From positions 1-35,307 of IMG/VR virus record IMGVR_UViG_3300033145_001818: a DNA stretch of 35,307 bases. One strand, written 5' to 3'. The position numbers and the translations under genes are program-made. The DNA comes from a virus. Taxonomy: Duplodnaviria > Caudoviricetes. The stretch's first letter is position 1. Each line of letters opens with the position of its first letter. The notes below the pieces were generated by a model. That model was not told the origin of the DNA. It made no database searches and saw only the letters and a program-made list of their open reading frames with translations. This document shows, in pieces, positions 909 through 23,662 of the stretch.

Positions 909-934
909 CAAAACCCACTCGTTTGAGTGGGTTA
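909..934. repeat. Palindromic repeat, copy 1 (caaaacccactcgtttgagtgggtta)
   Basis: Hairpin aacccactc-gttt-gagtgggtt; near-identical copy at 1405-1430. Confidence 0.8.
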
Positions 935-6254: not shown

Positions 6255-6315
6255 AAAAAAAATACCGAAAAAAAATAAAAAAAGTATTGACACTGAGCCT
6301 TGAATCTGGTAGAAT
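6255..6315 (+). promoter_or_regulatory. Strong sigma-A promoter with UP element
   Basis: TTGACA (6287-6292), 17-bp spacer, extended TG, TAGAAT (6310-6315), upstream A-tracts. Confidence 0.85.
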
Positions 6316-6359
6316 GGAATCAAGAAAACAACATAAGAACAACACAAGGAGGCGGAAAA

Positions 6360-6518
6360 ATGAAAGCAGTGCTAATCACCAAAGAGGGCGGAAGAAGAGA
6401 GTTTAATCCCGGCAGTTTTTCACTCGAGCAACTCACAGAGGTAATGTTGGCAGGCGAGAGACTGATCTGGACTGACGGCAAAGAATACGGACCAGCTTGC
6501 TTGATTTGCTTGATTTAA
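6360..6518 (+). CDS. Hypothetical protein, array gene 1
   Basis: AAGGAGG RBS; MKAVLITKEGG, 52 aa. Confidence 0.75.
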   Translation: MKAVLITKEGGRREFNPGSFSLEQLTEVMLAGERLIWTDGKEYGPACLICLI

Positions 6519-6546
6519 TCCCTGCCAGATGCCGCCACCAAACCAC

Positions 6547-6573
6547 GGCCTGCCGGGGGCCTAATCCCGGCAG
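6547..6573. repeat. Intergenic hairpin A, copy 1
   Basis: ggcctgccgggggcctaatcccggcag; related copies at 7595-7622 and 8475-8500. Confidence 0.85.
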
Positions 6574-6576
6574 AAA

Positions 6577-6637
6577 CAAAAATCCGCGCCGGCCGGCGTA
6601 AAGGGGCGCGTGAGAAATACCGCCAGCTAAAAAGGAG
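6577..6637 (+). repeat. Leader element B, copy 1 (putative pseudoknot next to RBS)
   Basis: About 60-bp direct repeat of 6935-6995. Confidence 0.8.
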
Positions 6638-6643
6638 AAAATA

Positions 6644-6889
6644 ATGAAAATCGTTAGCTACGATGAATTTCTCGAATACCTTCTGGACGTGGGTGTCTCA
6701 CCCGTTCCGGAGGAAATGGAAGACTTCTTCGGGTTCCCGGTGAATCTCGAAGGAGTGAAGAGGTGGTTCTCCTGCGCTGGAAACCATCTCGAGGAAGTCG
6801 AGGGTTCCCTCTCGTACTATGAGAGAGACACCCAGATTCCCGGTCCTCCCGACCTGTGGAGGACCGCGGCAGAGCACCAGCCGGAATAA
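6644..6889 (+). CDS. Acidic hypothetical protein, array gene 2
   Basis: AAGGAG RBS; 81 aa, D/E-rich. Confidence 0.75.
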   Translation: MKIVSYDEFLEYLLDVGVSPVPEEMEDFFGFPVNLEGVKRWFSCAGNHLEEVEGSLSYYERDTQIPGPPDLWRTAAEHQPE

Positions 6890-6934
6890 AAACCCCCCGG
6901 CCTGGGGCCGTTCCGGGAAACCAACCGGCCCCGC

Positions 6935-6995
6935 CAAAAATCCGCGCCAGCCGGCGTAAAGAGGCGTGTGAGAAATATCAGCCGGCTAAAGGAGG
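6935..6995 (+). repeat. Leader element B, copy 2
   Basis: caaaaatccgcgccagccggcgtaaagaggcgtgtgagaaatatcagccggctaaaggagg. Confidence 0.8.
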
Positions 6996-6999
6996 ATAT

Positions 7000-7236
7000 A
7001 TGAGGTGTACACGATGTGAGATGTACGGCGAGATAAGCAAGGGGATATATCCCTATCCGGGCAAGAGCCTGGATGAACCGGGACCACGGTATTGTTTGGG
7101 ATGCATTGAAAAAATCACCCGTTGGTGTGCCCGGCGGGAAGCGATGCAAGAACATTGGTTGGCTAATACCATCCCAGTGGGATGGTGTGGCGGAACTATA
7201 AAGAGAATACCGTTTTTTAGGAAGGAGGAGGATTGA
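7000..7236 (+). CDS. Small zinc-binding protein, array gene 3
   Basis: AAGGAGG RBS; CTRC and CLGC pairs. Confidence 0.75.
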   Translation: MRCTRCEMYGEISKGIYPYPGKSLDEPGPRYCLGCIEKITRWCARREAMQEHWLANTIPVGWCGGTIKRIPFFRKEED

Positions 7237-7240
7237 GACT

Positions 7241-7591
7241 GTGAAAATAATGAATGTCACCCCACACGCGATTCGCTTCCAGGATCGTGCTGGGGAAGTC
7301 TATGAAGTCCCGCCCTGCGGGACGGTTATTTCCGCCCGGCCGGTAGAAGAGCCTGCTGGAGCTCATCCTAGTGGCGCTCAGCTGGTAAGGACCAGCTTCG
7401 TGGCCTCGCCTGAAGCAGAGGAAGCCCTTGCGAAGCTCGAAGTGGAAATCCCGGGAGCGGTTGTTGTGGGTAGTATCATCGCTGCCCAAGCTTTCCCTGG
7501 TCGGGTGCTAGCACTCGTACCGGTACCTGGGTTTGAAAGAGTCTCTCCTGCTGAGAAGCGAATGAGGGACGACAAGTTTACCGTTTTCTAG
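7241..7591 (+). CDS. Hypothetical protein, array gene 4
   Basis: GGAGG RBS; 116 aa beginning MKIMNVTPHAI. Confidence 0.8.
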   Translation: MKIMNVTPHAIRFQDRAGEVYEVPPCGTVISARPVEEPAGAHPSGAQLVRTSFVASPEAEEALAKLEVEIPGAVVVGSIIAAQAFPGRVLALVPVPGFERVSPAEKRMRDDKFTVF

Positions 7592-7594
7592 CCA

Positions 7595-7622
7595 GGCCTG
7601 CCGGGAGCCGTTAATCCCGGCA
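7595..7622. repeat. Intergenic hairpin A, copy 2
   Basis: ggcctgccgggagccgttaatcccggca, 3 nt after the stop codon. Confidence 0.85.
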
Positions 7623-7710
7623 ACACTAAAAACCGCCTGCCCCTTGGTTGTCGGGCGGACATAAAAATACGGCAGTGCCCCAAAAGTGGGGTGGGGCAAA
7701 AGGAGGCACT

Positions 7711-8475
7711 ATGTCCACTTACAGAGTCTTCACCATCAAATCCGGCACCATTACGGAAGGCACTACTGTCGAGAAATTCACCCTCAAGGGTGCGGGAGCT
7801 ACCATCCCCGCCGTTCTGATTGGCGAAGAAGGGCGCGGGCGAGAGCTTGGTGTTTTGCCAGCCCAGCTTCTCCCTGCCCAACAGAAGGTCTGGGAGGAAA
7901 AAGGCAGCGTCACTATTACTGCTGCCGAAGTTGGACAGACCCGGGCGGGCAGGCCGAAGCTGATAGCCAATCAGGAAGCGGATACGGATGAGAAAATTAT
8001 TACCGTGCTCCGCACTAAAATTGGTTTTCGTGGAGGTAATTTCCATACAGGGGACCGTGCCGCGAAGTGGTGGGGGCTTCATAGGTACTGCTATGCTGAT
8101 GCGGAAAAGGCGGGGATACCGATCCAAAATCGGTACACCGCTGAAGAAGTGCGGGAATATTCCCCCCGTATTATGGAAGCTAGATACCCAGGAAGTGACC
8201 CCACTGGAGGGAGGTGGGATGCAGGGTTTGAAAGAAAGTTGGAGTTTACTCCCTTTCCTGGTGAAATCCTTGTAGAGGGGCACATCGCCCAGGGTGCCGC
8301 CGGGGGAATGGGAAGCGGCAGCCAACTCATTGCTGTCATGTCGAAAGACATCGTGTTCCGCACCAGTTACAGCGGGCGGTTGTACGGTGCTCCTGCTGCC
8401 CACTATTACGTTTGGACGGGAGAAAAACTCCTGTCCGCAACGTGGGAGGAAAGGCAGTTGGCAGATCTGTTCTAG
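7711..8475 (+). CDS. Hypothetical protein, array gene 5
   Basis: AAGGAGG RBS before MSTYRVF; 254 aa. Confidence 0.8.
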   Translation: MSTYRVFTIKSGTITEGTTVEKFTLKGAGATIPAVLIGEEGRGRELGVLPAQLLPAQQKVWEEKGSVTITAAEVGQTRAGRPKLIANQEADTDEKIITVLRTKIGFRGGNFHTGDRAAKWWGLHRYCYADAEKAGIPIQNRYTAEEVREYSPRIMEARYPGSDPTGGRWDAGFERKLEFTPFPGEILVEGHIAQGAAGGMGSGSQLIAVMSKDIVFRTSYSGRLYGAPAAHYYVWTGEKLLSATWEERQLADLF

Positions 8476-8500
8476 GCCCCGCCGGGAGCTTATCCCGGCA
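8475..8500. repeat. Intergenic hairpin A, copy 3
   Basis: ggccccgccgggagcttatcccggca directly at the stop codon. Confidence 0.8.
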
Positions 8501-8593
8501 GAAAGGAGGAACAAAATTCGCCAGAAGCCGACACTCCCCACTAAAGTGGGAAGTTAGCTGTGGGGAGCAGTCACTACTTTCTAGGATTCATAC

Positions 8594-8629
8594 AAAAAAA
8601 CCTGGTGGGCATGTTCCACCAGGAAAAAA
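8594..8629 (-). terminator. Hairpin flanked by A-tracts; reads as a terminator only on the minus strand
   Basis: aaaaaaa-cctggtgg-gcatgtt-ccaccagg-aaaaaa. Confidence 0.5.
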
Positions 8630-8660
8630 GAAAAAAGCGGGAGAACAAGGGGTTGGTTAT

Positions 8661-8870
8661 ATGCGGGGAATCAATTCGGCATTGAAAGCCTTGAAAAAAT
8701 GTTTTCAGTGCCAGCATAGCTCCAAGATACCAGGTGAATTATTTCCCCGGTGTCATGCACCCAAAAAAGTGCAGGAAGAGTGCATCCTGCACGAAGAGTG
8801 CATGAGGGAAGCTTATCTGCTTGAATGGGAAAAGGAGGAAAGGAAATGCGCGGAAAGCTACCTAAAATAA
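8661..8870 (+). CDS. Small Cys-rich protein overlapping the recombinase start
   Basis: MRGINSALKALKKCFQC..RCH..EC..EC; weak RBS. Confidence 0.55.
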   Translation: MRGINSALKALKKCFQCQHSSKIPGELFPRCHAPKKVQEECILHEECMREAYLLEWEKEERKCAESYLK

Positions 8871-9442
8871 CCTCGCGCCAGGAAGCAGCGCGAGTAATAA
8901 ACACCCCAGACGCGGGAACATTCTGCGGTCTGCGGGATAAAATGGCTATGTTGCTCATGTACCGGGCAGGCCTACGGGTGTCGGAGGTTTGCGCTTTAGG
9001 CGTGAACGATTTTGACTTGGACGGAGGGTTTATTTATATTCAATCCGGGAAGGGAAACAAAGACCGGGTTGTACCGGCCGCCCCGGAGATCATAGAATTA
9101 GGCCGGCAGTGGGTGCAAGCCCGGGAGGAGGTCGGCGAGGTTGAGTACTTTATTTGCACCAAAAACGGAACACCGGTTCTGCCGCGGTATTTGCGACATG
9201 TAGTCGCTAAATATTCACGCCGGGCTGGAGTTTATATCCAGGATGGCAAGAAAAAGAAGGCCATTCACCCGCACACGTTGCGGCACTGTTTCGGCACTGA
9301 GTTGGTGGAGGATGGCTTTTCGCTGCCCGAAGTGCAAGAGTTGCTCGGGCATGAAGACATTAAAACCACCGCCATTTATACACACGTGCGCCCAGAAGCC
9401 TTAGCCCGGAAAATGCGGGAGCGCAGAGGGATAGGGGCATGA
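8846..9442 (+). CDS. Tyrosine recombinase, catalytic domain only (198 aa, FimB/FimE-sized)
   Basis: GLRVSE, GKGNKDR, HPHTLRH, LGH, IYTH give R-K-H-R-H-Y; no N-terminal arm/core-binding domain. Confidence 0.93.
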   Translation: MRGKLPKITSRQEAARVINTPDAGTFCGLRDKMAMLLMYRAGLRVSEVCALGVNDFDLDGGFIYIQSGKGNKDRVVPAAPEIIELGRQWVQAREEVGEVEYFICTKNGTPVLPRYLRHVVAKYSRRAGVYIQDGKKKKAIHPHTLRHCFGTELVEDGFSLPEVQELLGHEDIKTTAIYTHVRPEALARKMRERRGIGA

Positions 9443-9552
9443 AAAAAGCGGTGTTATTCGGATGCGTGGCTTTTATAGCCACCTGCCCGAAGGCTTTTTT
9501 GGGTATTTTGGGGTTGGTTCTTGTCGTGGTTGTGGCCACGATATATAATTGA
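9439..9552 (+). CDS. 37-aa hydrophobic membrane peptide; not in ORF track
   Basis: ATGA overlap with recombinase stop; MKKAVLFGCVAFIATCPKAFLGILGLVLVVVVATIYN. Confidence 0.6.
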   Translation: MKKAVLFGCVAFIATCPKAFLGILGLVLVVVVATIYN

Positions 9553-9555
9553 CGG

Positions 9556-9588
9556 GCAAAATGCCCCTCTGAAAATTGAGGGGCATTT
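9556..9588 (+). repeat. 33-bp inverted repeat, left copy (11-8-11 palindrome)
   Basis: gcaaaatgcccctc-tgaaaatt-gaggggcattt; 32/33 identical to the reverse complement of 13051-13083. Confidence 0.9.
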
Positions 9589-9599
9589 GTTGTCGATTA

Positions 9600-9628
9600 T
9601 TGCGAAAGGGAAGGTTTCCCTGTATAAT
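9600..9628 (+). promoter_or_regulatory. Sigma-A promoter, followed by a leader hairpin at 9638-9672
   Basis: ttgcga-N17-tataat; gaaccgtc...gacggttc stem downstream. Confidence 0.7.
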
Positions 9629-9773
9629 AAACGGAAAGAACCGTCTCAGCTTTAGCGGGTGCCGGACGGTTCATCGTGGGGTATTTATATTTTTTTTGTG
9701 TTTATTTATTATACGGAATCCGCACAAAAAAGTCAATGCCCCTGCCGGTAAATATTATACGGGGGTGTTAGCT

Positions 9774-10298
9774 TTGCCACAGGATTTTTTGACCGTTGAG
9801 GAAAGTATTTATTCCGCCGGCTATGGCATGTTGTCCAAAAAGGTAATGCGCGATCGGACCCTGCCCGTGGGCGCTAAGGCATTATACGCCTATATCTGCA
9901 CGTTCGCAGGATCAGGAACCACTGCATGGCCGGGGCGCAAACTTATCACCAATGACCTCAACATCAACAAGGATACTTACACAAAATACCTAAAGGTGCT
10001 GAAAGACAAAGATTATATCCGGGTTATCCCCCGCCTGAACAAGCAGGGCCGCTTTGCCGGGAATAATTTTGTTATCGTTTTCAAGCCGTGTCCGAAAAAT
10101 CCGGACACGGATATGCCACCGTGTCCGAAAAAACCGGATACGGAAATTTCGGACACTAATATAAACAGATCTTTAATAGACCATAATAATTGCAAAAACC
10201 TTGCCAAAAACTTATCCATAAGGAAAAAAAATTACGCCGAATATCAGGAAAGGGTGAAAACATGCACTACCTCACAACCAAAGAAGCTGCGCAAATAA
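9774..10298 (+). CDS. HTH protein, replication-initiator N-terminal-like
   Basis: Likely TTG start; GYG..KKVMRDRTL..GAKALYAYICTFAG..AWPG pattern; iteron-like repeats after the HTH. Confidence 0.75.
   Translation: MPQDFLTVEESIYSAGYGMLSKKVMRDRTLPVGAKALYAYICTFAGSGTTAWPGRKLITNDLNINKDTYTKYLKVLKDKDYIRVIPRLNKQGRFAGNNFVIVFKPCPKNPDTDMPPCPKKPDTEISDTNINRSLIDHNNCKNLAKNLSIRKKNYAEYQERVKTCTTSQPKKLRK
10086..10156. repeat. Iteron-like palindromic repeats, candidate origin
   Basis: ccgtgtccgaaaaatccggacacgg, ccgtgtccgaaaaaaccggatacgg and a partial third copy. Confidence 0.7.
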
Positions 10299-10720
10299 TC
10301 GGTTGCGGCACAAAAAACATAACGCTTCTTTGCAAAGCGGGTAAATTCCCCGGTGCCAAAAAAATGCCGGGCAAAAAGACCGCGGAATGGCGCATTCCCG
10401 CCAAAGACGTTGCCAATTACCAGGCGCAGAAAGACTCCCCGGTTGAAGTAATGCCGCCAGAAGCCCTGGAACTGGTCACGAAACAATCATTCATGGATTT
10501 TATCACGGAAATACAAAGAAGGAACGAGGAAGAAATCGCGGAAATACGCAGAAGTATCGAAGAAATAGAGCGAAGAAAGGACGAAAAAGTCGCGGAAGTA
10601 CGGTCGCAACTGTCGCGGAAGGAGGAAGAAATCGCAGAAATAAAAGCCAGACTCGCGGAAGTCGAAGAAAAGACGAAGAAAAAACCCGGCATACTTGCCA
10701 GGCTTTTTAATCGTATTTAG
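10262..10720 (+). CDS. Excisionase/MerR-like HTH, coiled coil, amphipathic C-terminus
   Basis: YLTTKEAAQIIG..GKFPGAKK..WRIP; EEIAEI heptads; KKPGILARLF. Confidence 0.8.
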   Translation: MHYLTTKEAAQIIGCGTKNITLLCKAGKFPGAKKMPGKKTAEWRIPAKDVANYQAQKDSPVEVMPPEALELVTKQSFMDFITEIQRRNEEEIAEIRRSIEEIERRKDEKVAEVRSQLSRKEEEIAEIKARLAEVEEKTKKKPGILARLFNRI

Positions 10721-10911
10721 CGCCATGTTTCTTCCGGGTAAACTCCGAAGGCTTTTTTATACGCTTCCCGGCGTTTCTTTGTTTCCGTTTTTTCCTTCTT
10801 CATTCTTTCTTCCTTGACCGCCATATCGGTCATATTCTGCCTGCGTTCCCAATCACAGAGACCACGAGCTATTTCCCGACCCAATCCGCGCCCGAACTGT
10901 CTAAAACCCAC
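10717..10911 (-). CDS. Small basic hypothetical protein
   Basis: Overlaps the Replic_Relax stop; GGAGGG upstream. Confidence 0.55.
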   Translation of the reverse strand: MGFRQFGRGLGREIARGLCDWERRQNMTDMAVKEERMKKEKTETKKRREAYKKAFGVYPEETWR

Positions 10912-11551
10912 CGCCGGCCAACCCTCCTTTCAATTCGTCCAAGGTTTTCACCACGAACTTTAATCCAATCTTATTATCCCGATCAATAATATCCCGTATC
11001 CGTTCCGCGTCCTTCGGCGTTTCCGTGGCCACCAAAATCCGGGCAAATAATCCGGGTAAAGGCCATTGTGGGCCGTCCCATTCACCCGATTCGAAGTAAG
11101 CCGCGTATTTATTTACTTTATCAAATTTGCGCTGGTTTACTTCCCGATGCATTTCCAGGAACCAGGGTTTGCCATCGTGCACAAAGTATGCATCAGCTAT
11201 CAAAACATCCCCACAATTAACTTCACGCTGAAAGTGCTCAAGCTTCCCGCTCAGCTTTAAGCAAACCCAAACCCAATTGACCTGGATTAAATGATCCGCA
11301 TTGTCCGGCATCCTGCGCCGGTAATAAACGTAATCAGCGGTTACGGCGCAACGTCCGCGTCGCACTTTCTTTTCATCGTAAAGTTTTTTTAACTCCACTC
11401 GCGATTTCCACTTAGCATAATCAGAACTACCAAAACATACTAATTGGATCTGCTCTCGGCTCAACAAACCACAATCCGACACATAAGAAAAAACATTCAA
11501 TTTACGCAACAATCCATACTTGCGTGAATTTAAAACACTCAAAAAAACCAC
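10901..11551 (-). CDS. Replication-relaxation (Replic_Relax)-like protein
   Basis: wHTH N-terminus (LSREQIQ..F), H..VNWV, ADAYF..WFLEM..FDKV.KY nuclease-like core; adjacent to FtsK. Confidence 0.7.
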   Translation of the reverse strand: MVFLSVLNSRKYGLLRKLNVFSYVSDCGLLSREQIQLVCFGSSDYAKWKSRVELKKLYDEKKVRRGRCAVTADYVYYRRRMPDNADHLIQVNWVWVCLKLSGKLEHFQREVNCGDVLIADAYFVHDGKPWFLEMHREVNQRKFDKVNKYAAYFESGEWDGPQWPLPGLFARILVATETPKDAERIRDIIDRDNKIGLKFVVKTLDELKGGLAGGGF

Positions 11552-11627
11552 ATCCTACCTAAACTTCAACAATCCACAAAAACAAAAGCCTCTTATATAA
11601 AACTTTGCGCAAATATTAGACCCAAAC

Positions 11628-12833
11628 TTACCAGGACACCGCTCTTTTCACTTCAGGTTTCACGGCCTGCGGGTAACGCTTCCTAACGATTTCCGCGGCC
11701 TCTTTGGGCGGCAAGTGCATTACTTGTACCTGCCGGAGACGGTGCGTCAAGAGTATTGCCCTGCCTTTCCCCCGGACATAAGCCGCGTGGGGCATCCCTT
11801 CACCCAATATCATTTTGCTGTTTAATTCATTTCGGGTCTTGAAACACAACGTAACCGGCATCAGAGCTTTTGTATCGCCCGGTAAGACGCTGTAAGAAGG
11901 CCGCTGGGTGCAAACTACCGGGTGTACCCCCGCAAAGCGTCCCATGCGGCACAGGCGCGTTACAAGGGCCTTTTCATCACTCCCTAAATCCGCATACTCA
12001 TCCACTACTGCCAGGATATGCGCCAGCTTATGGTTACGGCCATGGTTGTATTCGCGGGTATTCGTCACTCGCGCCTTGCGCATCAGCCCCGCGCGCCGGT
12101 TTAATTCAGCGTTTGCTGCTTTCAAGATCCGGTTTACGCCTGCCAGCTCTCCGGCCCAATCTAACAAATGCGGCACGGCTTGGAATTTCTCGAATTCAAC
12201 ACCGTTTTTCAGGTCGCAAAGGTATAATTGTACTTGGTCCGGACGGTAGTTCATTACCGCCGCCGTAATAGCCTGCGTTAAGAATTGCGACTTACCAAAC
12301 CCAGGCATACCGCCGATCAGCAGTGCGAAGTTTTCGTCCCGACTCATATCCAGCATGACGTACCCCTGCCGGGCAATCCCGATCGGAATGGCACAATCGT
12401 ATTTCTTTATCTCAGCGGCCAGATCCGGACGGTAAGCGTAATACTGCGGTATGTGTCGGGTGTAGACTTTCAAATGCGCCCACCCCGAATTGTCCACCCA
12501 AGCATCTGTTTCGGCGTTCAAAGCGGCTTCCAACTCCACCCGGTTAATCTTTTGCAGGCACAGGCCGGGATATAGTTTTAAAATAATGTGGTAGCCATAG
12601 TCGGTCTTAATAAACCTGCCGATTTGCGGTTTCCGTTTAATTTCACCGTTTTCTCGAACCACAAAACCCTTATTGATAAAGAATTCCTCCAGGTTGCTTC
12701 TCAGCGTTGCACCTTTAAAATGCGGCTGCAGGTATTTCCGGTAAAATACCCCCCCAGCGTCAACCACAGCCTTTGCGGAGCCGTTCAGAGCGTCATACGC
12801 TACCTCGGCGGTTTTATTGGCAGCGTTTGTCAT
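11628..12833 (-). CDS. FtsK/SpoIIIE-family ATPase
   Basis: Walker A GMPGFGKS, DLKNGVEF, Walker B VVDEYA, GRFAGVH..TQRPS. Confidence 0.9.
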   Translation of the reverse strand: MTNAANKTAEVAYDALNGSAKAVVDAGGVFYRKYLQPHFKGATLRSNLEEFFINKGFVVRENGEIKRKPQIGRFIKTDYGYHIILKLYPGLCLQKINRVELEAALNAETDAWVDNSGWAHLKVYTRHIPQYYAYRPDLAAEIKKYDCAIPIGIARQGYVMLDMSRDENFALLIGGMPGFGKSQFLTQAITAAVMNYRPDQVQLYLCDLKNGVEFEKFQAVPHLLDWAGELAGVNRILKAANAELNRRAGLMRKARVTNTREYNHGRNHKLAHILAVVDEYADLGSDEKALVTRLCRMGRFAGVHPVVCTQRPSYSVLPGDTKALMPVTLCFKTRNELNSKMILGEGMPHAAYVRGKGRAILLTHRLRQVQVMHLPPKEAAEIVRKRYPQAVKPEVKRAVSW

Positions 12834-12979
12834 ACTTCTTCCACCTTCACAGTCGGAATGTCGTCTTGTTGCTTCCAGGTTCCTTGTGCGGTTTTCGGCG
12901 CGTCAAGAATTAAGTATTCAATCAATCTGGTTGCGGCGCAGGTTACGAGGATGGTCCCGAGCAATAACGAAACAGACAA
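12830..12979 (-). CDS. 49-aa membrane protein coupled to FtsK; not in ORF track
   Basis: AAGGAGGTG RBS, TTG start, MSVSLLLGTILVTCAATRLIEYLIL; ATGA overlap with FtsK start. Confidence 0.65.
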   Translation of the reverse strand: MSVSLLLGTILVTCAATRLIEYLILDAPKTAQGTWKQQDDIPTVKVEEV

Positions 12980-13050
12980 ATTCACCACCTCCTTTGGGTA
13001 TAAGTTTATGCGCCAGATGGTTTGTCCGGTTCAAGGTATTTTATGCAAAA

Positions 13051-13083
13051 AAATGCCCCTCAATTTTTAGAGGGGCATTTTGC
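13051..13083 (-). repeat. 33-bp inverted repeat, right copy; also terminator-like on the minus strand
   Basis: Reverse complement gcaaaatgcccctc-taaaaatt-gaggggcattt followed by T-run. Confidence 0.9.
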
Positions 13084-13324
13084 TTTTAGCGATTTTTTTT
13101 ATACGCCGCAAATCGGTGAAACCCATCAAGTAATCGGGGGATTCGTTAAATAGTTTACATAATTTTACTAAATTCTTAAACCCTGGTGATTTTAACTGCC
13201 TTTCATAGTACGATATCAGGCTGATCGGGCAATCAATAAACTCTGCTAATTTCTCTTGCGAAAACCCTCTCTCTTCACGCAGTTGTTTGAGTCTTTTGGC
13301 GAATAATTTTAAATTGCTGCTCAA
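13067..13324 (-). CDS. XRE-family HTH regulator
   Basis: RLKQLREERGFSQEKLAE..ISYYER..LVKLCKLFNESPDYLMG. Confidence 0.9.
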   Translation of the reverse strand: MSSNLKLFAKRLKQLREERGFSQEKLAEFIDCPISLISYYERQLKSPGFKNLVKLCKLFNESPDYLMGFTDLRRIKKIAKSKMPL

Positions 13325-13489
13325 TGCTCTTTTCTCCTTTGTTTGTTTTTTATTTTCTCCTGACTTAATTATACACTATAGTTATATTGCAAATAAAATC
13401 TTGTTTTCCGGTAGCATCCCGTCCTACATAGGTCGAAGCTTGATACGTTACTTGCCCTTTTTTGTTTACACGTTTTTTTATGCTGGCCA

Positions 13490-14131
13490 TTATCTCACCT
13501 CACTTTTGAACATAATAGCTTTTCCAATTATCTTAATATCCCGCGTTTCTTTTTTATTAAAAACTAAATCTTGATATGCAGGGTTCTCCGAACGTAAAAT
13601 TATTGAACCGTTAATTTTATAAACTCGTTTAAGCGTTGCTTCTTCATTATCTATCAGTACGGCAGCAATTTCACCATTTTCTACATCCGGTTGTTGGCGA
13701 ATATAAACAAGATCTCCATCGAGAATTCGAGCCCCAATCATGCTATCACCTTTTACTCGGAGGCAAAAATCTATATGACTAGTTTCAGGTACTTCTTCAT
13801 AACCAAATAAATCTTCTGAAGCCAGAATAGGAACTCCAGCAGCTATAGTCCCGTATATTGGAACCGATTTTGTATTTACTTTTGTACGTATAAAATATTT
13901 TGTTACCGATTCATAACCCATAAGCCATGAAGGATTGATATTGTATTTTTTAGAAATAGCTCCAATTAAACTACGAGGCATGTTTCCAATCTCGCCAGAT
14001 TCATATCGATTGTATGTCGTAGGATTGACCCCAAACATTTCAGCAAATTGTTTTTGGTTTAAACCGGTAGATTCTCTTATTTCTTTCAGGCGCTCTGTGC
14101 CCCGTTTCAATAAACTGTTTATATCTTCCAT
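13490..14131 (-). CDS. CI/LexA-like repressor with S24 autopeptidase
   Basis: N-terminal HTH, IAAGVP cleavage site, GDSM Ser, TLKR Lys. Confidence 0.93.
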   Translation of the reverse strand: MEDINSLLKRGTERLKEIRESTGLNQKQFAEMFGVNPTTYNRYESGEIGNMPRSLIGAISKKYNINPSWLMGYESVTKYFIRTKVNTKSVPIYGTIAAGVPILASEDLFGYEEVPETSHIDFCLRVKGDSMIGARILDGDLVYIRQQPDVENGEIAAVLIDNEEATLKRVYKINGSIILRSENPAYQDLVFNKKETRDIKIIGKAIMFKSEVR

Positions 14132-14230
14132 CTATTATTACCCCCTCGTTGTTATATTTTATTATAGCTTATAATTGTTTATAATTCAATTATTATTTAA
14201 TTTATTGCCCAAAGTATTTCATTTTATGCA

Positions 14231-14259
14231 TTGACATTTTAGGTATTCTGAATTATCCT
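14231..14259 (+). promoter_or_regulatory. Rightward promoter of the CI/Cro switch
   Basis: TTGACA-N17-tatcct in the AT-rich divergent intergenic region. Confidence 0.65.
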
Positions 14260-14313
14260 TTATATATGCGATTGTAATTAATGCAATATCTTAGCGAAGG
14301 GGGGGACGGTGCC

Positions 14314-14559
14314 GTGGCGAAACAAGAAAAATTATTTCTTAAATTGAGAGGAGAAATTGTAGCAAAAGGCTATACTTTGAAATCAGTAGCTCAAGAAATA
14401 GGGTTAACCCAACAAGGGTTAAATGAAAAATTGCAGGGTCGCTCTGATTTTACTTTGCGAGAAATGATAGAAATTTGTAACTTATTAAATTCAAAAATCG
14501 ATATTTTTTTTGAACCCAAATTGCATAATTTGCAATTCACAAAAAACAACATAGCTTAA
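14314..14559 (+). CDS. Cro-like HTH protein
   Basis: Divergent from repressor; KLRGEIVAKGYT..VAQEIG..LNEKLQGRSDFT..IFF. Confidence 0.85.
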   Translation: MAKQEKLFLKLRGEIVAKGYTLKSVAQEIGLTQQGLNEKLQGRSDFTLREMIEICNLLNSKIDIFFEPKLHNLQFTKNNIA

Positions 14560-14582
14560 AATTGTACAATCGGAGGCTAAAC

Positions 14583-14954
14583 ATGAAGGGAATCGTCAAA
14601 ATTAAGAAAATTCACGTCGGCGACCGCATCAATGGCAAAAAGATCGTCGAAGTGGTTCACCGGCTGCACTGCGGCTACGTCCGGGTAGTGCTGGAAGGCG
14701 GTCGGGTATCGTGGATGGTTACAAGGGCAAGATGGTGGAGGTGGAAAGGAGGGAGGTTGGTGAAGCTAAACAGCGCGGCCATACGCGCGGTGATGCGCGG
14801 TAAAAAAACATGGAACTGGCGTAAATGCGTGCCGCTGGTGGCCTTGGCAACAGGGTTTGTGGTACTGGTCCTGGCAACGATACTACAAAGCTGGTTTTTA
14901 AGCCAGACACCGGTGGAAGTGTGGGAGAGTATATTTTGTATCCCAAAATTCTAG
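14583..14954 (+). CDS. Hypothetical ORF, probably two genes (second from GTG 14760, membrane protein)
   Basis: GGAGG RBSs before 14583 and 14760; C-terminal TM segment. Confidence 0.55.
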   Translation: MKGIVKIKKIHVGDRINGKKIVEVVHRLHCGYVRVVLEGGRVSWMVTRARWWRWKGGRLVKLNSAAIRAVMRGKKTWNWRKCVPLVALATGFVVLVLATILQSWFLSQTPVEVWESIFCIPKF

Positions 14955-15028
14955 AAGCACGCAGATAAAAACAGCCGCATAAGCGGCTAGAAAAAACTTC
15001 AAGAAAACTATACCACAGAAAGGAGAGT

Positions 15029-15370
15029 ATGGCAATGCCCAAAAGGGCCGAACTAATTTCCCGCGCTAATAAGACAACCGATGCGATAAATCACGCTTGG
15101 GATACGGTCAATGGAATAATCCGACCGCTGAGTATAAACATGGACGCGGCGCATGGGTTTACCGTGCACTTGCGCAATTGCCGGGATTTAAAAGATATAC
15201 CCGGTGAGGAGGTATCAGTATCACTAATAAACGATCCCGATTACCCGATGCTGAAGGCAAAATTATTGAAACAATACCAGGGTGTTGCGTTTATATGTTT
15301 CGCGGATGAGCACGAACTCAAAAACTTTATACGAGAAAGGAGGCAATTAGGCAATGGAATTGTTAATTAA
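15029..15370 (+). CDS. Hypothetical protein
   Basis: AAGGAG RBS; overlaps the next gene. Confidence 0.75.
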   Translation: MAMPKRAELISRANKTTDAINHAWDTVNGIIRPLSINMDAAHGFTVHLRNCRDLKDIPGEEVSVSLINDPDYPMLKAKLLKQYQGVAFICFADEHELKNFIRERRQLGNGIVN

Positions 15371-17339
15371 ACAAATTACCTATCAAAATTTTAAAGGATT
15401 GCGCAACTATATTTTTAAACCCGAAGGTAAAAGTATTAATGTTTTCGCTGATAATGGCTGTTTTAAAAGTACATTGTATGATGGATTCCTTTGGTTGCTT
15501 TTTAATCGTGATAGCCAAGGAAGAACAAATTTTGAAGTGAAAACATTAAACCCTGACGGAACCCCAATACATGGGCTTGAGCACAGCGTAGAAGCAGTTT
15601 TAAATTTCGGAGGACGGGATATTGCACTAAAAAAGGTTTTTAAGGAAAAGTGGGTAAAGCGACGCGGAAATGCAAAAGCTGAATTTACTGGCCACGAAAC
15701 AAGCTATTGGGTTAATGATGTCCCGGTTAAAAAGTCGGAGTACGAGGTCCGCATTTCTGAATTGGTAGACGAAAATATATTCCGCCTATTAACAGACCCT
15801 CGCTATTTTAATAATCTCCATTGGACCGAGCGCAGGAAGTTATTGTTAAACGTCTGCGGAAACATGTCTGATAAAGAGGTTATCCAATCCGATAAATCAC
15901 TCTCTAAGCTATCGGAAATCCTGCAAGGCCACAGCATGGAAGACCATCGCAAAATTATCACAGCTAGACGGAGCGAGATTAATAAGGAGCTGGATAAGAT
16001 ACCCGTCCGGATTGATGAGGTTGAATTATCCTTGCTAGATGTTTTTAGTGAGCATCCTGAAAGCTTGTTTGATGACATTCAAAACCTTAAAGCAGCCTTG
16101 CAGGAGAAGCAGCAGGAGCTTGCTCGTGTAGAATCAGGCGGCGAAATTGCGGAAAAGACAAAAAAACTTCGGAAGCTTGAAGCGGAATTGATCGATCTGA
16201 AAAATCAGCACCGCAATAAATACGAAGCAGAAATTCAGGAAAAACAAAAGCTGTTAAACGAGGTAAAAGAAAAGTGTTCAGATCTGCTCACCGCTATAAG
16301 AGGCATGGAGAAATCGACAGAGTTGTGTCACGAAAAGCAGGCGTCCATCGGCAATAAACTAACGACATTACGGGCTAAATGGCACGAAATCAATGACCAG
16401 CAGTTAGAGTTGGAACTGGATGAAGTCTGTCCCACCTGCGGTCAACCATTACCGGCTGAAAAGCTGGCCGAGGCGCGGGAAAAGGCGTTGGCCCAATTCA
16501 ATAGAGAGAAGGCTGAAAAACTAGAGCAAATTACCGCTGAAGGCAAGCGGTTGATAGCCCAGGGTGATAAGTTAGCTGCTGAAATTTTTGGCCTAGAAAA
16601 GAAAATCAAAGAGGCTAGGGCCGAAATTGAGGCCGAAGAGAAGGCAGTAGAGCAGCTTCAAAGCGAAATCGATGCGCTACGTAAAAAAATGGAATTTGCT
16701 ACAGCTAATGATAGAACGTACAACGCTAAATACCTTGAAAAACTTGACATCGAAAAAGCAATTTCCTCGCTTAAGGAAAACAACGCTGAAGCTGTCGCAA
16801 AAATCAAGGAAGAAATCAAAGAAATAGAACTGGACATAGCGACGCTGGAGCAGGAAACGGCAAAAGTGGAACGGCGTAAGCAAGGGCAGAAGCGCATTGA
16901 AGAACTCAAGGAGCAAGAGCGCAAGCTGGCTGCTGAATATGAAAAGCTAGAAGAAGAGCTATACCTCACCGAACAATTTATCCGCACAAAAGTTAATCTC
17001 CTGGAAGAAAAAATCAACAGCAAATTTAAGATGGCAAGATTCAAGTTGTTTGATGTTCAGGTCAATGGCGCAGTAGTCGAGTGTTGTGAGACCACCTACC
17101 AGGGCGTGCCCTATTCCAGCCTAAATAACGGGGCCAGGATCAATATCGGGCTGGATATCATCAACACTCTGTCGGAGCATTACGGTTTTGACGTCCCTAT
17201 TTTTATTGATAACGCTGAGGCCGTTACTCAACTGACAGAGACCAGGGGACAGCAGATTAAGCTATTTGTAAGTGAGGCGGACAAAAAACTCCGCGTTGAA
17301 CACGTGGATAAGAAAGAAAAAATTAAGGAGGCTGTATAA
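15354..17339 (+). CDS. SbcC/Rad50-like coiled-coil ATPase
   Basis: NFKG, Walker A-like DNGCFKST, CPTCGQ zinc hook, LNNG signature, IFIDNAE. Confidence 0.9.
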   Translation: MELLIKQITYQNFKGLRNYIFKPEGKSINVFADNGCFKSTLYDGFLWLLFNRDSQGRTNFEVKTLNPDGTPIHGLEHSVEAVLNFGGRDIALKKVFKEKWVKRRGNAKAEFTGHETSYWVNDVPVKKSEYEVRISELVDENIFRLLTDPRYFNNLHWTERRKLLLNVCGNMSDKEVIQSDKSLSKLSEILQGHSMEDHRKIITARRSEINKELDKIPVRIDEVELSLLDVFSEHPESLFDDIQNLKAALQEKQQELARVESGGEIAEKTKKLRKLEAELIDLKNQHRNKYEAEIQEKQKLLNEVKEKCSDLLTAIRGMEKSTELCHEKQASIGNKLTTLRAKWHEINDQQLELELDEVCPTCGQPLPAEKLAEAREKALAQFNREKAEKLEQITAEGKRLIAQGDKLAAEIFGLEKKIKEARAEIEAEEKAVEQLQSEIDALRKKMEFATANDRTYNAKYLEKLDIEKAISSLKENNAEAVAKIKEEIKEIELDIATLEQETAKVERRKQGQKRIEELKEQERKLAAEYEKLEEELYLTEQFIRTKVNLLEEKINSKFKMARFKLFDVQVNGAVVECCETTYQGVPYSSLNNGARINIGLDIINTLSEHYGFDVPIFIDNAEAVTQLTETRGQQIKLFVSEADKKLRVEHVDKKEKIKEAV

Positions 17340-17340
17340 A

Positions 17341-18393
17341 ATGTCTGAAAAGCAAAATCAAGCATTGAAAAAGCCGGAAGAGTCTATGTCTGTTAGGTTT
17401 ATGAATAAAGTCGTGTCAGAATTTAACTCCAGCGTTGGCGAAATAGCTCTCACAAACTTTCAAAAGCGTTTGGTTCAAAACTATTTTATGGCTGTTGACT
17501 ATGCATTAAAAGTAGCAGAAGAAAAACGGAAAAAGAAGAATGAAAAATACCGGGACCATTTGCCGGTAGTCTGGGCTAACGTTAACATAGAACAACTCGC
17601 CCGGGACGTTATAGCAGCTGCTCGAGTCGGTCTTGATCCCGCGCAACCTAACCATATCAGCGTGATTCCCTATAAAAACAATTCATTAAACAAGTATGAT
17701 ATAGGCTTTATCGAGGGTTATCGTGGTATAGAGCTTAAGTCGGAAAAATACGGTCTGGACGTGCCGGATGACGTAACGGTGGAGCTGGTTTACTCGAACG
17801 ACCACTTTAAACCGATTAAAAAAGACCGTAACAACCCGATCGAGACATACGAATTTGAAATAAAAGATCCTTTTGGCAGGGGAGAAATCGTGGGCGGCTT
17901 TTATTACCACTCTTTTAAAGACAATCCCGCGAAAAATAAGCTGGTAGTTTTTACTATTAAGGACATTGAGAAGCGCAAACCACCTTATGCCAGCGTAGAG
18001 TTTTGGGGCGGAGAAAAGGATATCTGGGAAAACGGCAAAAAGGTCGGAAAACAGAAGGTTGAGGGCTGGTATGAAAAGATGTGCTACAAGACGATTTACC
18101 GGGCAGCTTATAAAGATATTACTATCGACAGCCAAAAGATCGATGATGATTACCTGCGCTTGAAGCAGATGGAGGAGTCCTCTGCAGAATCTGAGGTTGC
18201 TAGGGAAATCGCTGAAAACGCCAACTCTGAGGTGATAGATGTTGAATATGATGTAGCCCAAGATGAAGCACCGCAAGGGGAGCAGGAAGAAGAAAAAAAT
18301 AAAACCCTCAAACAGGAGCAAAAAGTAAAACCGGAAAGAGAACTTGTATCAGCTGGAGACGGACAGCAGATCTTGGAAGAGCCGGGATTTTGA
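17341..18393 (+). CDS. recT: RecT-family single-strand annealing protein
   Basis: ARVGLDP, IPY, EGYRG, ELVYSNDHF, MCYKT..R; acidic tail; position in recombination module. Confidence 0.8.
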   Translation: MSEKQNQALKKPEESMSVRFMNKVVSEFNSSVGEIALTNFQKRLVQNYFMAVDYALKVAEEKRKKKNEKYRDHLPVVWANVNIEQLARDVIAAARVGLDPAQPNHISVIPYKNNSLNKYDIGFIEGYRGIELKSEKYGLDVPDDVTVELVYSNDHFKPIKKDRNNPIETYEFEIKDPFGRGEIVGGFYYHSFKDNPAKNKLVVFTIKDIEKRKPPYASVEFWGGEKDIWENGKKVGKQKVEGWYEKMCYKTIYRAAYKDITIDSQKIDDDYLRLKQMEESSAESEVAREIAENANSEVIDVEYDVAQDEAPQGEQEEEKNKTLKQEQKVKPERELVSAGDGQQILEEPGF

Positions 18394-18454
18394 TTTACTT
18401 AATTAGGCTGGGGTGGGCGCGTGCTTGCCCCGGTCGATAAGGGTAGGTGGTTTT

Positions 18455-19102
18455 ATGGGAAAGCGGTTAAACATTCAACCTGGTGAAAGATATGGAAAGC
18501 TAACTATTATCCGAGAGGTCAGAAAAACAAGTGTTAAACGCCGCTTTTTATGTCGCTGTGATTGTGGGCGCCTTACTCAAGTTAACTTAAATTCGCTCAG
18601 AGCTGGAGCTATAAAGAGTTGCGGATGCCTACTTAAGGAAAACGGAAAAAGAAACAAAATACATGGTTACTGGCAACATCGGCTTTATGGTATCTGGGCA
18701 GGTATAAAGCAACGTTGCTTTAATCCTAAAAGCAACAATTACAAGTATTATGGAGCCCGAGGAATTACTATTTGCCCGGAATGGATAAATTTCAACTCAT
18801 TTTTAAAGTGGGCATTGTCATCTGGATATAAAGATGGACTTACGATTGAAAGAATTGATGTTAATGGAAATTACGAGCCAAGTAATTGCAAATGGATACC
18901 TCTAAAAGAACAGCCAGGAAATACGCGCCAAAGCCGCTGGGTTACTTGGAAAGGTAAAACAAAAAATATATCCCAATGGGCCAAACACACTGGGTTATGT
19001 GCAGAAACAATCAGGCGCAGATTAGCCTATGGATGGACTATTGAAAGAGCACTTACTGAACCACCACATAAAGTTGGGGCGGCGGTGCGTCATGGAAATT
19101 AA
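18455..19102 (+). CDS. HNH-type homing endonuclease
   Basis: CRCDCG, SCGC, WAGIKQRC, YGARGITIC, TIERIDVNGNYEPSNCKW. Confidence 0.85.
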   Translation: MGKRLNIQPGERYGKLTIIREVRKTSVKRRFLCRCDCGRLTQVNLNSLRAGAIKSCGCLLKENGKRNKIHGYWQHRLYGIWAGIKQRCFNPKSNNYKYYGARGITICPEWINFNSFLKWALSSGYKDGLTIERIDVNGNYEPSNCKWIPLKEQPGNTRQSRWVTWKGKTKNISQWAKHTGLCAETIRRRLAYGWTIERALTEPPHKVGAAVRHGN

Positions 19103-22340: not shown

Positions 22341-23144
22341 GTGTCAAGGCCAAGGAAGCAGACTGTAAATTATTTCCCGCATATGTGCAACCACGGAAAA
22401 ACAATATTTATTCTGGAACAAAAATATGGCAACGATGGCTATGCCTTCTGGTTCAAGTTGCTTGAGATGCTTGGAAGCACCGAAGGGCATTATTTAAAAT
22501 TAGAAAACTCTGCCGATTGGGAGTTTCTACAGGCGAAAACCCGGTTGGACGGGGATAAGTGCGAAGAAATCCTTGGCCTTTTGGCTAAATTGGGAGCGAT
22601 TGATGCGGAGTTGTGGGAGGAGCAGAAAATCGTCTGGTCGGACAACTTCGTGGCCAATATAGCCGATGCTTACCGGAATCGTACGTCAGAAATACCAACT
22701 AAGCCGAGTTTCTTACGTCAGAAACCCCGTGACACCGACCAACCCAGCGTAAGAAATCCGCAAACTAAAGTAAATAAAACTAAAGTAAATAAAACTAAAG
22801 TAAATAAAAACAATACGCGCGCGTGCACGCGCGAGGAGTATACTCCAGACTTTGAGGAATTCTGGTCATCTTACCCACGCAAAACCGAAAAATACGCCGC
22901 CTTCAAAGCCTGGAAAACCCGCCGGAAAGAAGGGGTCCCGGCCGCCGATCTGACAGCGGCGTCAAAGCACTATGCCGATTACTGCGCCGCCAAGGGCACG
23001 GAAACGCAGTATATCAAGCACGCTAAGACCTTTTTAGGCCCGATGCACCCATACAGAGAATGGATAAGGGCACCGGACCCGGCGGAAACCATGGACGCGC
23101 CTAAAGCATGGCACACGCTAAAGCCCTATCTTGAGGAGGGATAA
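22341..23144 (+). CDS. Phage replication initiator (DUF4373/Lin1244-like N-terminus)
   Basis: MSRPRKQTVNYFPH..KYGNDGYAFWFKLLE; C-terminal FEEFWSSYPRK..YIKHAKTFL. Confidence 0.85.
   Translation: MSRPRKQTVNYFPHMCNHGKTIFILEQKYGNDGYAFWFKLLEMLGSTEGHYLKLENSADWEFLQAKTRLDGDKCEEILGLLAKLGAIDAELWEEQKIVWSDNFVANIADAYRNRTSEIPTKPSFLRQKPRDTDQPSVRNPQTKVNKTKVNKTKVNKNNTRACTREEYTPDFEEFWSSYPRKTEKYAAFKAWKTRRKEGVPAADLTAASKHYADYCAAKGTETQYIKHAKTFLGPMHPYREWIRAPDPAETMDAPKAWHTLKPYLEEG
22670..22810. repeat. Candidate origin within the initiator gene
   Basis: tacgtcagaaa twice, then aaactaaagtaaata three times in tandem (22762-22806). Confidence 0.65.
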
Positions 23145-23149
23145 TCCCA

Positions 23150-23662
23150 TTGAACAAGTCTGAAGTGGCAAAGCTACTAGCTTTCGTGACCGCACTATAC
23201 CCAAACATTGACGTTAAACGGGGTACGGTAGAAGCCTGGCATGAAATGGTCGGAGATCTGCCGTATAACGTAGTAAAAAACGCTATGAAAAAAGTCTTGG
23301 CAGAGCAGCACATACCCTGCTTGCCGGCAGCTGGGAAGATCCGTGAAGCTGCCGCTCAAATAACACACCCGCGAGTACTGTCCTCCGCGGAAGCATGGGG
23401 GCAGGTTATGGCTGCCGTGCAAAAATACGGGTATTATCAGGCTGTTGAAGGAATGCAAGCACTTAATCCGGTGGTAAGGCAAACGGTAAAAGCCTTCGGC
23501 GGCTTTACGGAGATATGTTTAACGGAGAATATTGACGCGACCAGGGCGCATTTTCTCAAAATGTATGAGCAATACGCGATGCGTAAGATAGCAACGGCAG
23601 TCATGCCGGATTCGGTCAGGCAACTAACCAACCGCACAGCAGGGCGCCTGACGGGCGCCTGA
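23150..23662 (+). CDS. Replicative helicase loader/inhibitor (G39P-like)
   Basis: EVAKLLAFV..YP..WHEM..DLPY, AEAWGQV..KYGYY, RAHFLKMY; follows the initiator. Confidence 0.8.
   Translation: MNKSEVAKLLAFVTALYPNIDVKRGTVEAWHEMVGDLPYNVVKNAMKKVLAEQHIPCLPAAGKIREAAAQITHPRVLSSAEAWGQVMAAVQKYGYYQAVEGMQALNPVVRQTVKAFGGFTEICLTENIDATRAHFLKMYEQYAMRKIATAVMPDSVRQLTNRTAGRLTGA

What the first reader, a model, noticed from the sequence alone, without database searches (positions are those of the whole stretch)
8846..13083. Candidate 3.5-kb invertible maintenance module bounded by recombinase-like sites next to a minimal tyrosine recombinase
Seen: 33-bp sites at 9556-9588 and 13051-13083 are 32/33 identical and inverted. 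Each has 11-bp palindromic arms (aaatgcccctc/gaggggcattt) around an asymmetric 8-bp spacer. They enclose two convergent operons: HTH initiator-like plus HTH/coiled-coil, and membrane peptide-FtsK-Replic_Relax-small ORF. A 198-aa tyrosine recombinase ends about 110 bp from the left site. Known: loxP, FRT and dif have this arm-spacer-arm layout, inverted sites yield inversion, and FimB/FimE invertases are about 200 aa. Inference: flipping would change which operon follows the strong early array and which follows the repressor operon, a possible lifestyle switch. Caveats: the one mismatch is in the spacer, and both sites could simply be terminators.
Basis: partly seen in the sequence, partly recalled or inferred. 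Interest (0 to 1): 0.8.

Follow-up and report, generated by a model that had tools for sequence, protein, structure and literature searches.

The report
Plasmid replicon cassette between twin terminators
This bacterial virus keeps only a stub of its usual integration gene and carries a small DNA-copying cassette that likely lets it persist as a plasmid; the two near-identical hairpins around the cassette are likely transcription stop signals rather than the ends of an enzyme-driven flip switch.

Summary
The two inverted 33-bp sites are real (32/33 identical) and far beyond chance. The switch reading is mostly unsupported. The left operon, with its hairpin, sense and antisense promoters, short initiator, DnaA box and HTH/coiled-coil gene, recurs in two complete circular phages that encode no tyrosine or serine recombinase. 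One of them has hairpins with the same arm core at both ends of the cassette, with 4-nt loops and T-runs like ordinary terminators. The 198-aa recombinase is a catalytic-domain-only enzyme of a phage clade that ends its own operon; 0 of 47 other clade loci have a matching second copy of the hairpin behind it. Internal promoters point inward, and both junctions stay terminators after a simulated flip, so flipping would not rewire expression. A 30-codon integrase stub after the repressor suggests that a plasmid replicon replaced integration. No reads were available. Verdict: likely phage-plasmid cassette; active recombinase-driven inversion about 20%.

The parts
8846..9442 (+). Tyrosine recombinase, catalytic domain only (198 aa), last large gene of the early array operon
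   Evidence: PF00589; catalytic residues invariant; model pLDDT 90, best fold match XerA catalytic domain
9439..9552 (+). 37-aa membrane peptide overlapping the recombinase stop; part of the recombinase operon
   Evidence: similar hydrophobic peptide after the recombinase in 8 clear cases among 47 clade loci
9556..9588 (+). Left hairpin: likely intrinsic terminator for the recombinase operon and insulator in front of the rep promoter
   Evidence: same position as variable terminators behind the recombinase in relatives and as the hairpin before the rep promoter in L404 and L407
9600..9628 (+). Sigma-70-type promoter for the rep operon
   Evidence: TTGCGA-17-TATAAT; matching promoter in L404 and L407
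9638..9672 (.). Leader hairpin, predicted target and terminator of a short antisense RNA
   Evidence: fold z -4.6 on the minus strand; conserved in L407; no Rfam family
9708..9736 (-). Antisense promoter facing back through the rep leader (likely copy-control RNA)
   Evidence: TTGACT-17-TATAAT, 11 of 12; present in L404 and L407
9774..10298 (+). Short HTH_36 replication initiator (174 aa)
   Evidence: PF13730; PHROG initiator families; 161-aa counterpart with the same C-terminus in L407
10086..10162 (.). Three short direct repeats inside rep, candidate iterons
   Evidence: family D5; role inferred
10212..10220 (+). DnaA-box-like 9-mer just before the HTH_17 gene
   Evidence: one mismatch here, perfect box 27-48 nt before the homologous gene in 4 of 4 other contigs
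10262..10720 (+). HTH_17 plus coiled-coil protein, the marker gene of the cassette
   Evidence: 52-53% homologs in L404-L407; distant homolog beside a plasmid-type rep in L403
10717..10911 (-). 64-aa ORF ending the FtsK operon
   Evidence: 59% homolog after FtsK and Replic_Relax in L289
10901..11551 (-). Replic_Relax (MOBC-like) protein
   Evidence: PF13814
11628..12833 (-). FtsK/SpoIIIE ATPase
   Evidence: PF01580; close homologs 45-61%
12830..12988 (-). 52-aa ORF with a hydrophobic N-terminus, first gene of the FtsK operon
13051..13083 (-). Right hairpin: likely intrinsic terminator for the repressor-side operon; its loop holds the HTH_3 stop codon
   Evidence: same place as the far-end hairpin of the cassette in G676 and G678
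13067..13324 (-). HTH_3 regulator ending inside the right hairpin
13365..13490 (-). Integrase stub: about 30 codons of an arm-binding N-terminus, then unrelated sequence and a stop
   Evidence: 55% over 31 aa to the start of a full integrase in L291, phmmer E 7.7e-5 among 1078 long ORFs; no Pfam, PHROG or NCBIfam hit
13490..14131 (-). CI-like repressor with S24 domain
22341..23662 (+). Separate lytic initiator and G39P-type helicase loader (context: the phage has two initiators)

Best explanation
The block holds a short initiator gene with conserved promoters and a DnaA box plus an FtsK/relaxase pair, and it likely works as the plasmid-state replicon of a temperate phage that keeps only a stub of its integrase, while the two hairpins likely act as inbound transcription terminators that insulate it. 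Shown: the leader (hairpin, sense promoter, inner hairpin, antisense promoter), initiator, DnaA box and HTH/coiled-coil gene recur in complete phages without any recombinase, in the slot between repressor and lysis genes. Inferred: the antisense RNA limits initiator expression and so copy number; the initiator and host DnaA fire an origin at the end of rep; the FtsK/relaxase pair is passenger cargo for segregation or mobilisation. The near-identity and inverted loops of the two hairpins most likely come from a one-off event (duplication or gene conversion when the cassette was inserted or reversed), possibly helped by the phage RecT-like protein. The adjacent recombinase belongs to a different, conserved operon and is probably a neighbour, not the operator.
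For: Cassette homologs: 4 viral contigs carry the HTH_17 gene at 52-53%; in the 2 with upstream sequence it follows hairpin, promoter, antisense promoter and a short initiator. The 3 records rated complete have 0 matches to PF00589, PF00239, PF07508 and PF01580; G679 has terminase, portal, capsid, repressor pair and a separate lytic initiator. The arm core CCCCTC/GAGGGG occurs twice in G676 (one at each end of the cassette, loops ACGT and CGAA, the latter UUCG on the transcribed strand with a T-run), once in G679, once in the part of G678 read, and only 6 times in 4.7 Mb of other loci (other hexamer arms 2-10). DnaA box before the HTH gene in 5 of 5. Recombinase clade: a GC hairpin with T-run but different sequence follows the gene or its peptide in the closest relatives; best second copy 35/40 in the window against at most 70% (one 18-nt case 83%) in 47 other loci, 30 of them with at least 3.5 kb downstream; no repeat of 24 bp at 88% or more at the recombinase hairpin or bracketing the FtsK genes in 6 long relatives; 0 of 18 FtsK loci bracketed. 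Flip simulation leaves both junctions as terminators (-20.0 and -22.4 kcal/mol, 6-7 T of 9). Integrase stub and no other recombinase in the contig.
Against: The two hairpins share 7 of 8 loop bases, have longer arms and an 8-nt A/T loop, whereas the pair in G676 share only the arm core; plain terminators do not need this. The block is reversed relative to the repressor compared with G676 and G679, and its FtsK operon is reversed relative to the recombinase compared with L134 and L196 (L050 matches the window). The loop core also appears once, 33 bp behind the clade recombinase in L192, and nowhere else in 4.7 Mb (pattern chosen after seeing it), which could mark a recombinase site as well as a terminator shared by descent. 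The contig is about 45% complete, so an integrase elsewhere is not excluded. No partition genes were found. The initiator family is normally the lytic initiator: 0 of 80 viral loci found with it had the HTH_17 or FtsK gene nearby. Plasmid maintenance and termination were not measured.
Confidence: 0.65

Rival explanations
1. The 198-aa recombinase actively inverts the 3.5-kb block at the two sites. Since flipping would not rewire transcription, the likely purpose would be to reverse a replication fork or resolve multimers, as Flp does in the yeast 2-micron plasmid.
For: Arm-spacer-arm layout with 8-bp asymmetric spacer; 32/33 identity could reflect repeated exchange; intact catalytic residues; block reversed relative to relatives; candidate origin about 0.5 kb from one site and 2.9 kb from the other; loop core also behind the L192 recombinase. 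The mismatch leaves a stop codon for HTH_3 with either spacer. One screen found that loxP spacers tolerate mismatches at all variable positions in vitro (PMC1479339, passages).
Against: No paired sites in 47 other clade loci, including closer enzymes at 52-62% identity; hairpin family present without any recombinase; no core-binding domain; mismatch at spacer position 2, which earlier work cited in PMC1479339 found important for strand exchange; single copy of the core in the L192 genome.
Confidence: 0.18
2. The block flips now and then by short-homology recombination between the 33-bp repeats (phage RecT-like protein or host RecA), without a dedicated enzyme and without a regulatory role; this keeps the repeats alike.
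For: RecT-family hit at 17272-18393 (E 1.6e-4, below cut-off); either orientation is predicted to be neutral for transcription; block reversed relative to relatives.
Against: 33 bp with a mismatch is short for frequent exchange (own knowledge); a single past event explains the same data; no reads.
Confidence: 0.09
3. The block is an independent passenger element (small mobilisable plasmid or satellite) that integrated at the terminator and can leave again; the sites are its attachment scars.
For: Replicon plus coupling-protein-like ATPase and MOBC-like domain (PMC5357655 passages); palindromic arms can pair in either orientation, so a crossover within an arm could give inverted loops; close FtsK homologs were not found in viral contigs.
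Against: The replicon half sits as a resident part of complete phages in the integrase slot; FtsK plus Replic_Relax is a common resident module next to lysis or integrase genes in related prophages; the initiator had no small-plasmid matches among the 20 listed of 108 plasmid records.
Confidence: 0.08

Closest known systems
Phage-plasmids (plasmid prophages), e.g. Bacillus plasmid prophages with an FtsK/SpoIIIE - replication-relaxation operon (PMC11526630, passages) and the general class in PMC10879196 (passages)
   Same: Temperate phage with repressor switch, a second plasmid-state initiator, FtsK plus Replic_Relax operon and no full integrase in the contig.
   Different: No ParA/ParM system seen; the replicon is a 1.2-kb cassette with a phage-type HTH_36 initiator, predicted antisense control and a DnaA box; an integrase stub suggests conversion from integrating phage to phage-plasmid, the reverse of the P1 conversions in the passages read.
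Intrinsic (Rho-independent) terminators bracketing phage cassettes (recalled class)
   Same: GC-rich stem, T-run on the inbound strand, position at or just after a stop codon; duplicated terminator pairs also occur at 900-934/1396-1430 and in other phage loci.
   Different: Those duplicated pairs are direct; this pair is inverted and nearly identical through an 8-nt loop.
Cre/loxP, Flp/FRT and Xer/dif
   Same: Palindromic arms around an asymmetric 8-bp spacer; inverted pair near an origin as in the 2-micron plasmid (PMC6594588, passages); recombinase fold closest to XerA catalytic domain.
   Different: Enzyme lacks the core-binding domain that simple tyrosine recombinases carry (PMC8138268, passages); spacers differ at position 2; sites do not travel with the enzyme.
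FimB/FimE invertases
   Same: About 200 aa, catalytic domain only (FimB/FimE architecture recalled; model lengths 200 and 198).
   Different: Scores 64 and 61 bits against cut-offs of 221 and 222, well below its Xer scores of 133-151; no outward-facing promoter whose target gene would change.

Membership tests
loxP/FRT/dif-type two-site inversion system | Two palindromic arms around a 6-8 bp asymmetric spacer, in inverted orientation | tested here: met
loxP/FRT/dif-type two-site inversion system | Identical overlap (spacer) sequence at both sites | tested here: not met
   mismatch at position 2; effect uncertain, PMC1479339 passages report both sensitivity and tolerance
loxP/FRT/dif-type two-site inversion system | Cognate recombinase with core-binding and catalytic domains | tested here: not met
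   catalytic domain only
loxP/FRT/dif-type two-site inversion system | Sites conserved with the recombinase in relatives | tested here: not met
   0 of 47 clade loci with a paired copy; only a 14-nt core in 1 locus, single copy
loxP/FRT/dif-type two-site inversion system | Both orientations present in one population; recombination by the enzyme | not testable with these tools
   no sequencing run was listed
FimB/FimE invertases | Family HMM above cut-off | tested here: not met
   64.2 and 60.6 bits against 221 and 222
FimB/FimE invertases | Invertible segment carries an outward promoter that switches a flanking gene | tested here: not met
   both operons point inward; the only outward promoter found runs into its own hairpin and faces gene 3' ends
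Intrinsic terminator | GC-rich stem followed by a T-run, directly after a gene end | tested here: met
   both sites listed by the terminator scan on the inbound strand; fold z -7.6 and -5.7
Intrinsic terminator | Transcript 3' ends at the T-run | not testable with these tools
   no RNA data
Phage-plasmid | Phage packaging and lysis genes together with a replicon separate from the lytic one | tested here: met
   terminase, amidase, two initiators; replicon function inferred from conserved features
Phage-plasmid | No functional integrase | tested here: inconclusive
   stub only in this contig, contig 45% complete; none in 3 complete cassette relatives
Phage-plasmid | Maintained outside the chromosome in lysogens | not testable with these tools
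   no host genome or reads
MOBC/TcpA-like mobilisation module | PF13814 protein beside an FtsK-domain ATPase | tested here: met
   family assignment from PMC5357655 passages
MOBC/TcpA-like mobilisation module | Origin of transfer and mobilisation | not tested
   no oriT model available here

The most novel reading that the evidence does not exclude
A phage that swapped its integrase for a plasmid replicon has recruited a catalytic-domain-only tyrosine recombinase to flip that replicon between two terminator-derived sites, reversing one replication fork to amplify the plasmid prophage as Flp does for the yeast 2-micron circle.
Probability: 0.08. Interest if true: 0.85.

Novelty: new variant of a known kind. 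Interest (0 to 1): 0.38.

Why it matters
The cassette gives a marker (HTH_17/coiled-coil gene with a DnaA box and an antisense-controlled leader) for a likely group of small phage-plasmids of anaerobic Firmicutes that lack integrase, partition and resolvase genes and would be missed by usual replicon screens. This contig seems to catch the change from integrating phage to plasmid prophage, with the integrase stub still in place. It also shows that loxP-looking pairs beside a recombinase can be terminators. If the recombinase did flip the origin, it would be a bacterial counterpart of Flp amplification.

Tried and rejected
Reads: no public run was listed for 8400-14200, so orientation mixing is untested. 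Exact site pattern: 0 matches in viral contigs and 0 of 162 genomes of a related class at up to 2 mismatches, so it is not a host dif-like or repeated element there. Close FtsK homologs (45-61%) had no retrievable DNA: only distant ones came back from viral contigs and from 162, 125 and 16 genomes. HTH_3 relatives that might show an empty site: none. HTH_17 alignment: 0 of 401 genomes of the phylum. Idea that the initiator is truncated: rejected, L407 has a 161-aa counterpart with the same end. Idea that the recombinase flips the whole 23-kb early module, which points either way in relatives: no matching repeat near the far junction in the window or in 6 long relatives. L158 has 123-bp inverted terminal repeats around a distant recombinase; a different kind of element, not used. 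Type I toxin-antitoxin reading of the 37-aa peptide: dropped, because the peptide is coupled to the recombinase in relatives that lack the cassette and the antisense promoter travels with rep. The extended G-U stem around the left site (-28.7 against -21.4 kcal/mol by strand) may be chance and is given no weight. Rfam: no match near a gathering score. Earlier scan notes: nothing on this contig or protein; three loosely related notes were not used.
Full report
Setting. The window is a whole 35,307-bp virus record, rated about 45% complete and linear. It holds terminase, a repressor/cro pair, a replication and recombination module and an amidase, but no head or tail genes. The closest recombinase relatives in named genomes are from Peptococcaceae, Desulfotomaculum and other Firmicutes.

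Observation. The two sites are as described: inverted, 32/33 identical, 11-bp arms, 8-bp spacers that differ at position 2. They score 57.2 bits; the best inverted match in 100 dinucleotide shuffles reached 34.6. Both are listed as terminator-like on the strand that runs into the block and fold with z of -7.6 and -5.7 on those strands. The left site starts 4 bp after the stop of a 37-aa membrane peptide that overlaps the recombinase stop. The right site contains the last codons and the stop of an HTH_3 gene.

The recombinase. It has the full catalytic set and folds as a Xer-like catalytic domain with no core-binding domain. Simple tyrosine recombinases normally have both domains (PMC8138268, passages). 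It heads a clade of about 200-aa proteins at 45-62% identity. It scores 133-151 bits on Xer models and only 64 and 61 bits on the two invertase models, whose cut-offs are 221 and 222. In relatives it sits at the end of a small-gene array near the terminase genes, whatever lies downstream. A similar membrane peptide follows it in 8 clear cases among 47 other loci (two more calls were doubtful), and the closest enzymes are followed by GC hairpins with T-runs of unrelated sequence. The best second copy of the downstream hairpin was 35/40 in the window and at most 70% in the others, apart from one 18-nt hairpin at 15/18; 30 of the 47 had at least 3.5 kb downstream (the script did not always pick the terminator hairpin). 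An all-against-all hairpin search of 82 recombinase loci found pairs in 2 only, a direct pair and a terminal repeat. Six long relatives had no repeat of 24 bp at 88% or more at the recombinase hairpin or around their FtsK genes. Against this, a 14-nt core like the window's loop lies 33 bp behind the recombinase in L192, once in that genome, and nowhere else in 4.7 Mb of loci. I chose that pattern after seeing it. It fits a terminator shared by descent, but a recombinase site is not excluded.

The cassette. Searching with the HTH_17/coiled-coil gene gave four viral contigs at 52-53%. In L404 and L407, from complete circular phages of 47.9 and 42.3 kb, the order is cro, repressor, accessory genes, hairpin, promoter, leader, initiator, HTH_17 gene, then lysis genes coming the other way. 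The leader aligns with the window from the hairpin to the rep start. A sense promoter and an antisense promoter are present in 3 of 3, and a DnaA box lies 27-50 nt before the HTH_17 start in 5 of 5, perfect in four and with one mismatch in the window (the window has 7 such one-mismatch boxes in all). L407 has a 161-aa initiator with the same C-terminus as the window's 174-aa one. The three records rated complete have no match to PF00589, PF00239, PF07508 or PF01580, and G679 has a second, lytic initiator with loader, as the window does. So the cassette fills the integrase slot in phages with no recombinase. I infer a plasmid-state replicon with antisense copy control; this is not shown. The initiator family alone is not a marker: 0 of 80 viral loci found with it had the HTH_17 or FtsK gene nearby.

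The hairpin family. The arm core CCCCTC/GAGGGG with a 3-9 nt loop occurs twice in G676, at both ends of the cassette and each facing inbound transcription, once in G679, once in the 40 kb of G678 that I read, twice in the window, and 6 times in 4.7 Mb of other loci. The loops in those phages are 4 nt, one a UUCG loop with a T-run, too short for a tyrosine recombinase spacer (own knowledge). Both window sites thus have positional counterparts in a phage that has no recombinase.

The integrase stub. Right after the repressor, 13365-13490 begins with about 30 codons that match the start of a full integrase in L291 (55% over 31 aa, E 7.7e-5 among 1078 long ORFs) and then stops; no other recombinase was found in the six frames. 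The match is short and had no family hit. Relatives such as L050, L126 and L134 have a full integrase at this place. The missing half of the genome could still hold one.

FtsK and Replic_Relax. This pair is a common resident module beside lysis or integrase genes in related prophages and in a putative Bacillus plasmid prophage (PMC11526630, passages). PF13814 corresponds to MobC relaxases and PF01580 to TcpA-type coupling proteins (PMC5357655, passages). Of 18 FtsK loci none was bracketed by paired hairpins; one had a weak pair elsewhere.

Would a flip matter? Both operons point inward, the rep operon has its own promoter, and both flanking operons end at the hairpins. After a simulated exchange both junctions keep a stem of -20 to -22 kcal/mol and 6-7 T in 9 nt. 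So a flip would not change which promoter drives which gene, unless read-through is large or the FtsK operon, for which the scan found no sigma-70 promoter, depends on it.

In G676 and G679 the rep operon follows the repressor; here it follows the recombinase operon, and the FtsK operon follows the repressor. The FtsK operon runs with the recombinase in L134 and L196 and against it in L050 and the window; these are distant (22-32% FtsK identity). The window's two hairpins share 7 of 8 loop bases while the G676 pair do not. A past inversion or inverted duplication is therefore likely. Whether it still happens is open: no run was listed. The spacer mismatch is at a position that earlier loxP work found important, but the same paper saw mismatches tolerated in vitro (PMC1479339, passages).

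Comparison and novelty. It works most like a phage-plasmid replicon insulated by terminators. It resembles lox/FRT only in layout. Phage-plasmids and conversions between element types are known (PMC10879196, passages). If active, the inversion would resemble Flp amplification (PMC6594588, passages). Four searches listed no paper whose title or opening lines describe this cassette or such a flip in a phage; I saw only listings for most hits, read no supplements, and the library lacks most subscription journals.

Verdict. Observation confirmed; interpretation partly supported. Replicon cassette with twin terminators and a one-off rearrangement 0.65; recombinase-driven inversion 0.18; occasional homology-driven flipping 0.09; independent passenger element 0.08. 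New variant of a known kind, interest 0.38.

Noticed in passing
window 6287-8510: Early small-gene array behind a strong promoter, with related GC-rich hairpin elements after most stop codons (6547, 6577/6935, 7592, 8475); L191 and L192 have similar repeats, and relatives carry LPD29, DUF3560, RadC or STIV B116-like genes in the same array. These repeats are another candidate target for the recombinase.
   Followed up: partly
window 8846-9552 and clade loci L043-L205: A conserved pair of catalytic-domain-only tyrosine recombinase and a 35-45 aa membrane peptide ends the early array in many Firmicutes phages, several of which also have a full integrase; function not established.
   Followed up: partly
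window 13490-32800 against L047, L123, L124, L128, L190-L192, L200: The whole repressor-replication module points the other way in one group of relatives and the same way in another (L050, L053, L126, L134, L193, L197), with one breakpoint just after the recombinase operon; no repeat explains it.
   Followed up: partly
L404 and L407 (G676, G679): Complete 42-48 kb tailed-phage records with repressor pair and replicon cassette but no tyrosine or serine recombinase and no FtsK: candidate minimal phage-plasmids.
   Followed up: partly
window 900-934 and 1396-1430: A second duplicated hairpin pair, direct, 31/35 identical, flanking one ORF (964-1365).
   Followed up: no
window 22220-22274 and 28540-28594: Two 55-bp copies, 98% identical, with a hairpin resembling an IS200/IS605-type end (resemblance recalled).
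   Followed up: no
L158 1-123 and 8713-8835: 8.8-kb viral contig with perfect 123-bp inverted terminal repeats that contain a hairpin, and a 230-aa tyrosine recombinase inside.
   Followed up: partly
G307 ends (L390 1-258, L393 end): Tandem 27-bp repeats across the ends of a complete 70-kb phage that carries the clade recombinase.
   Followed up: no
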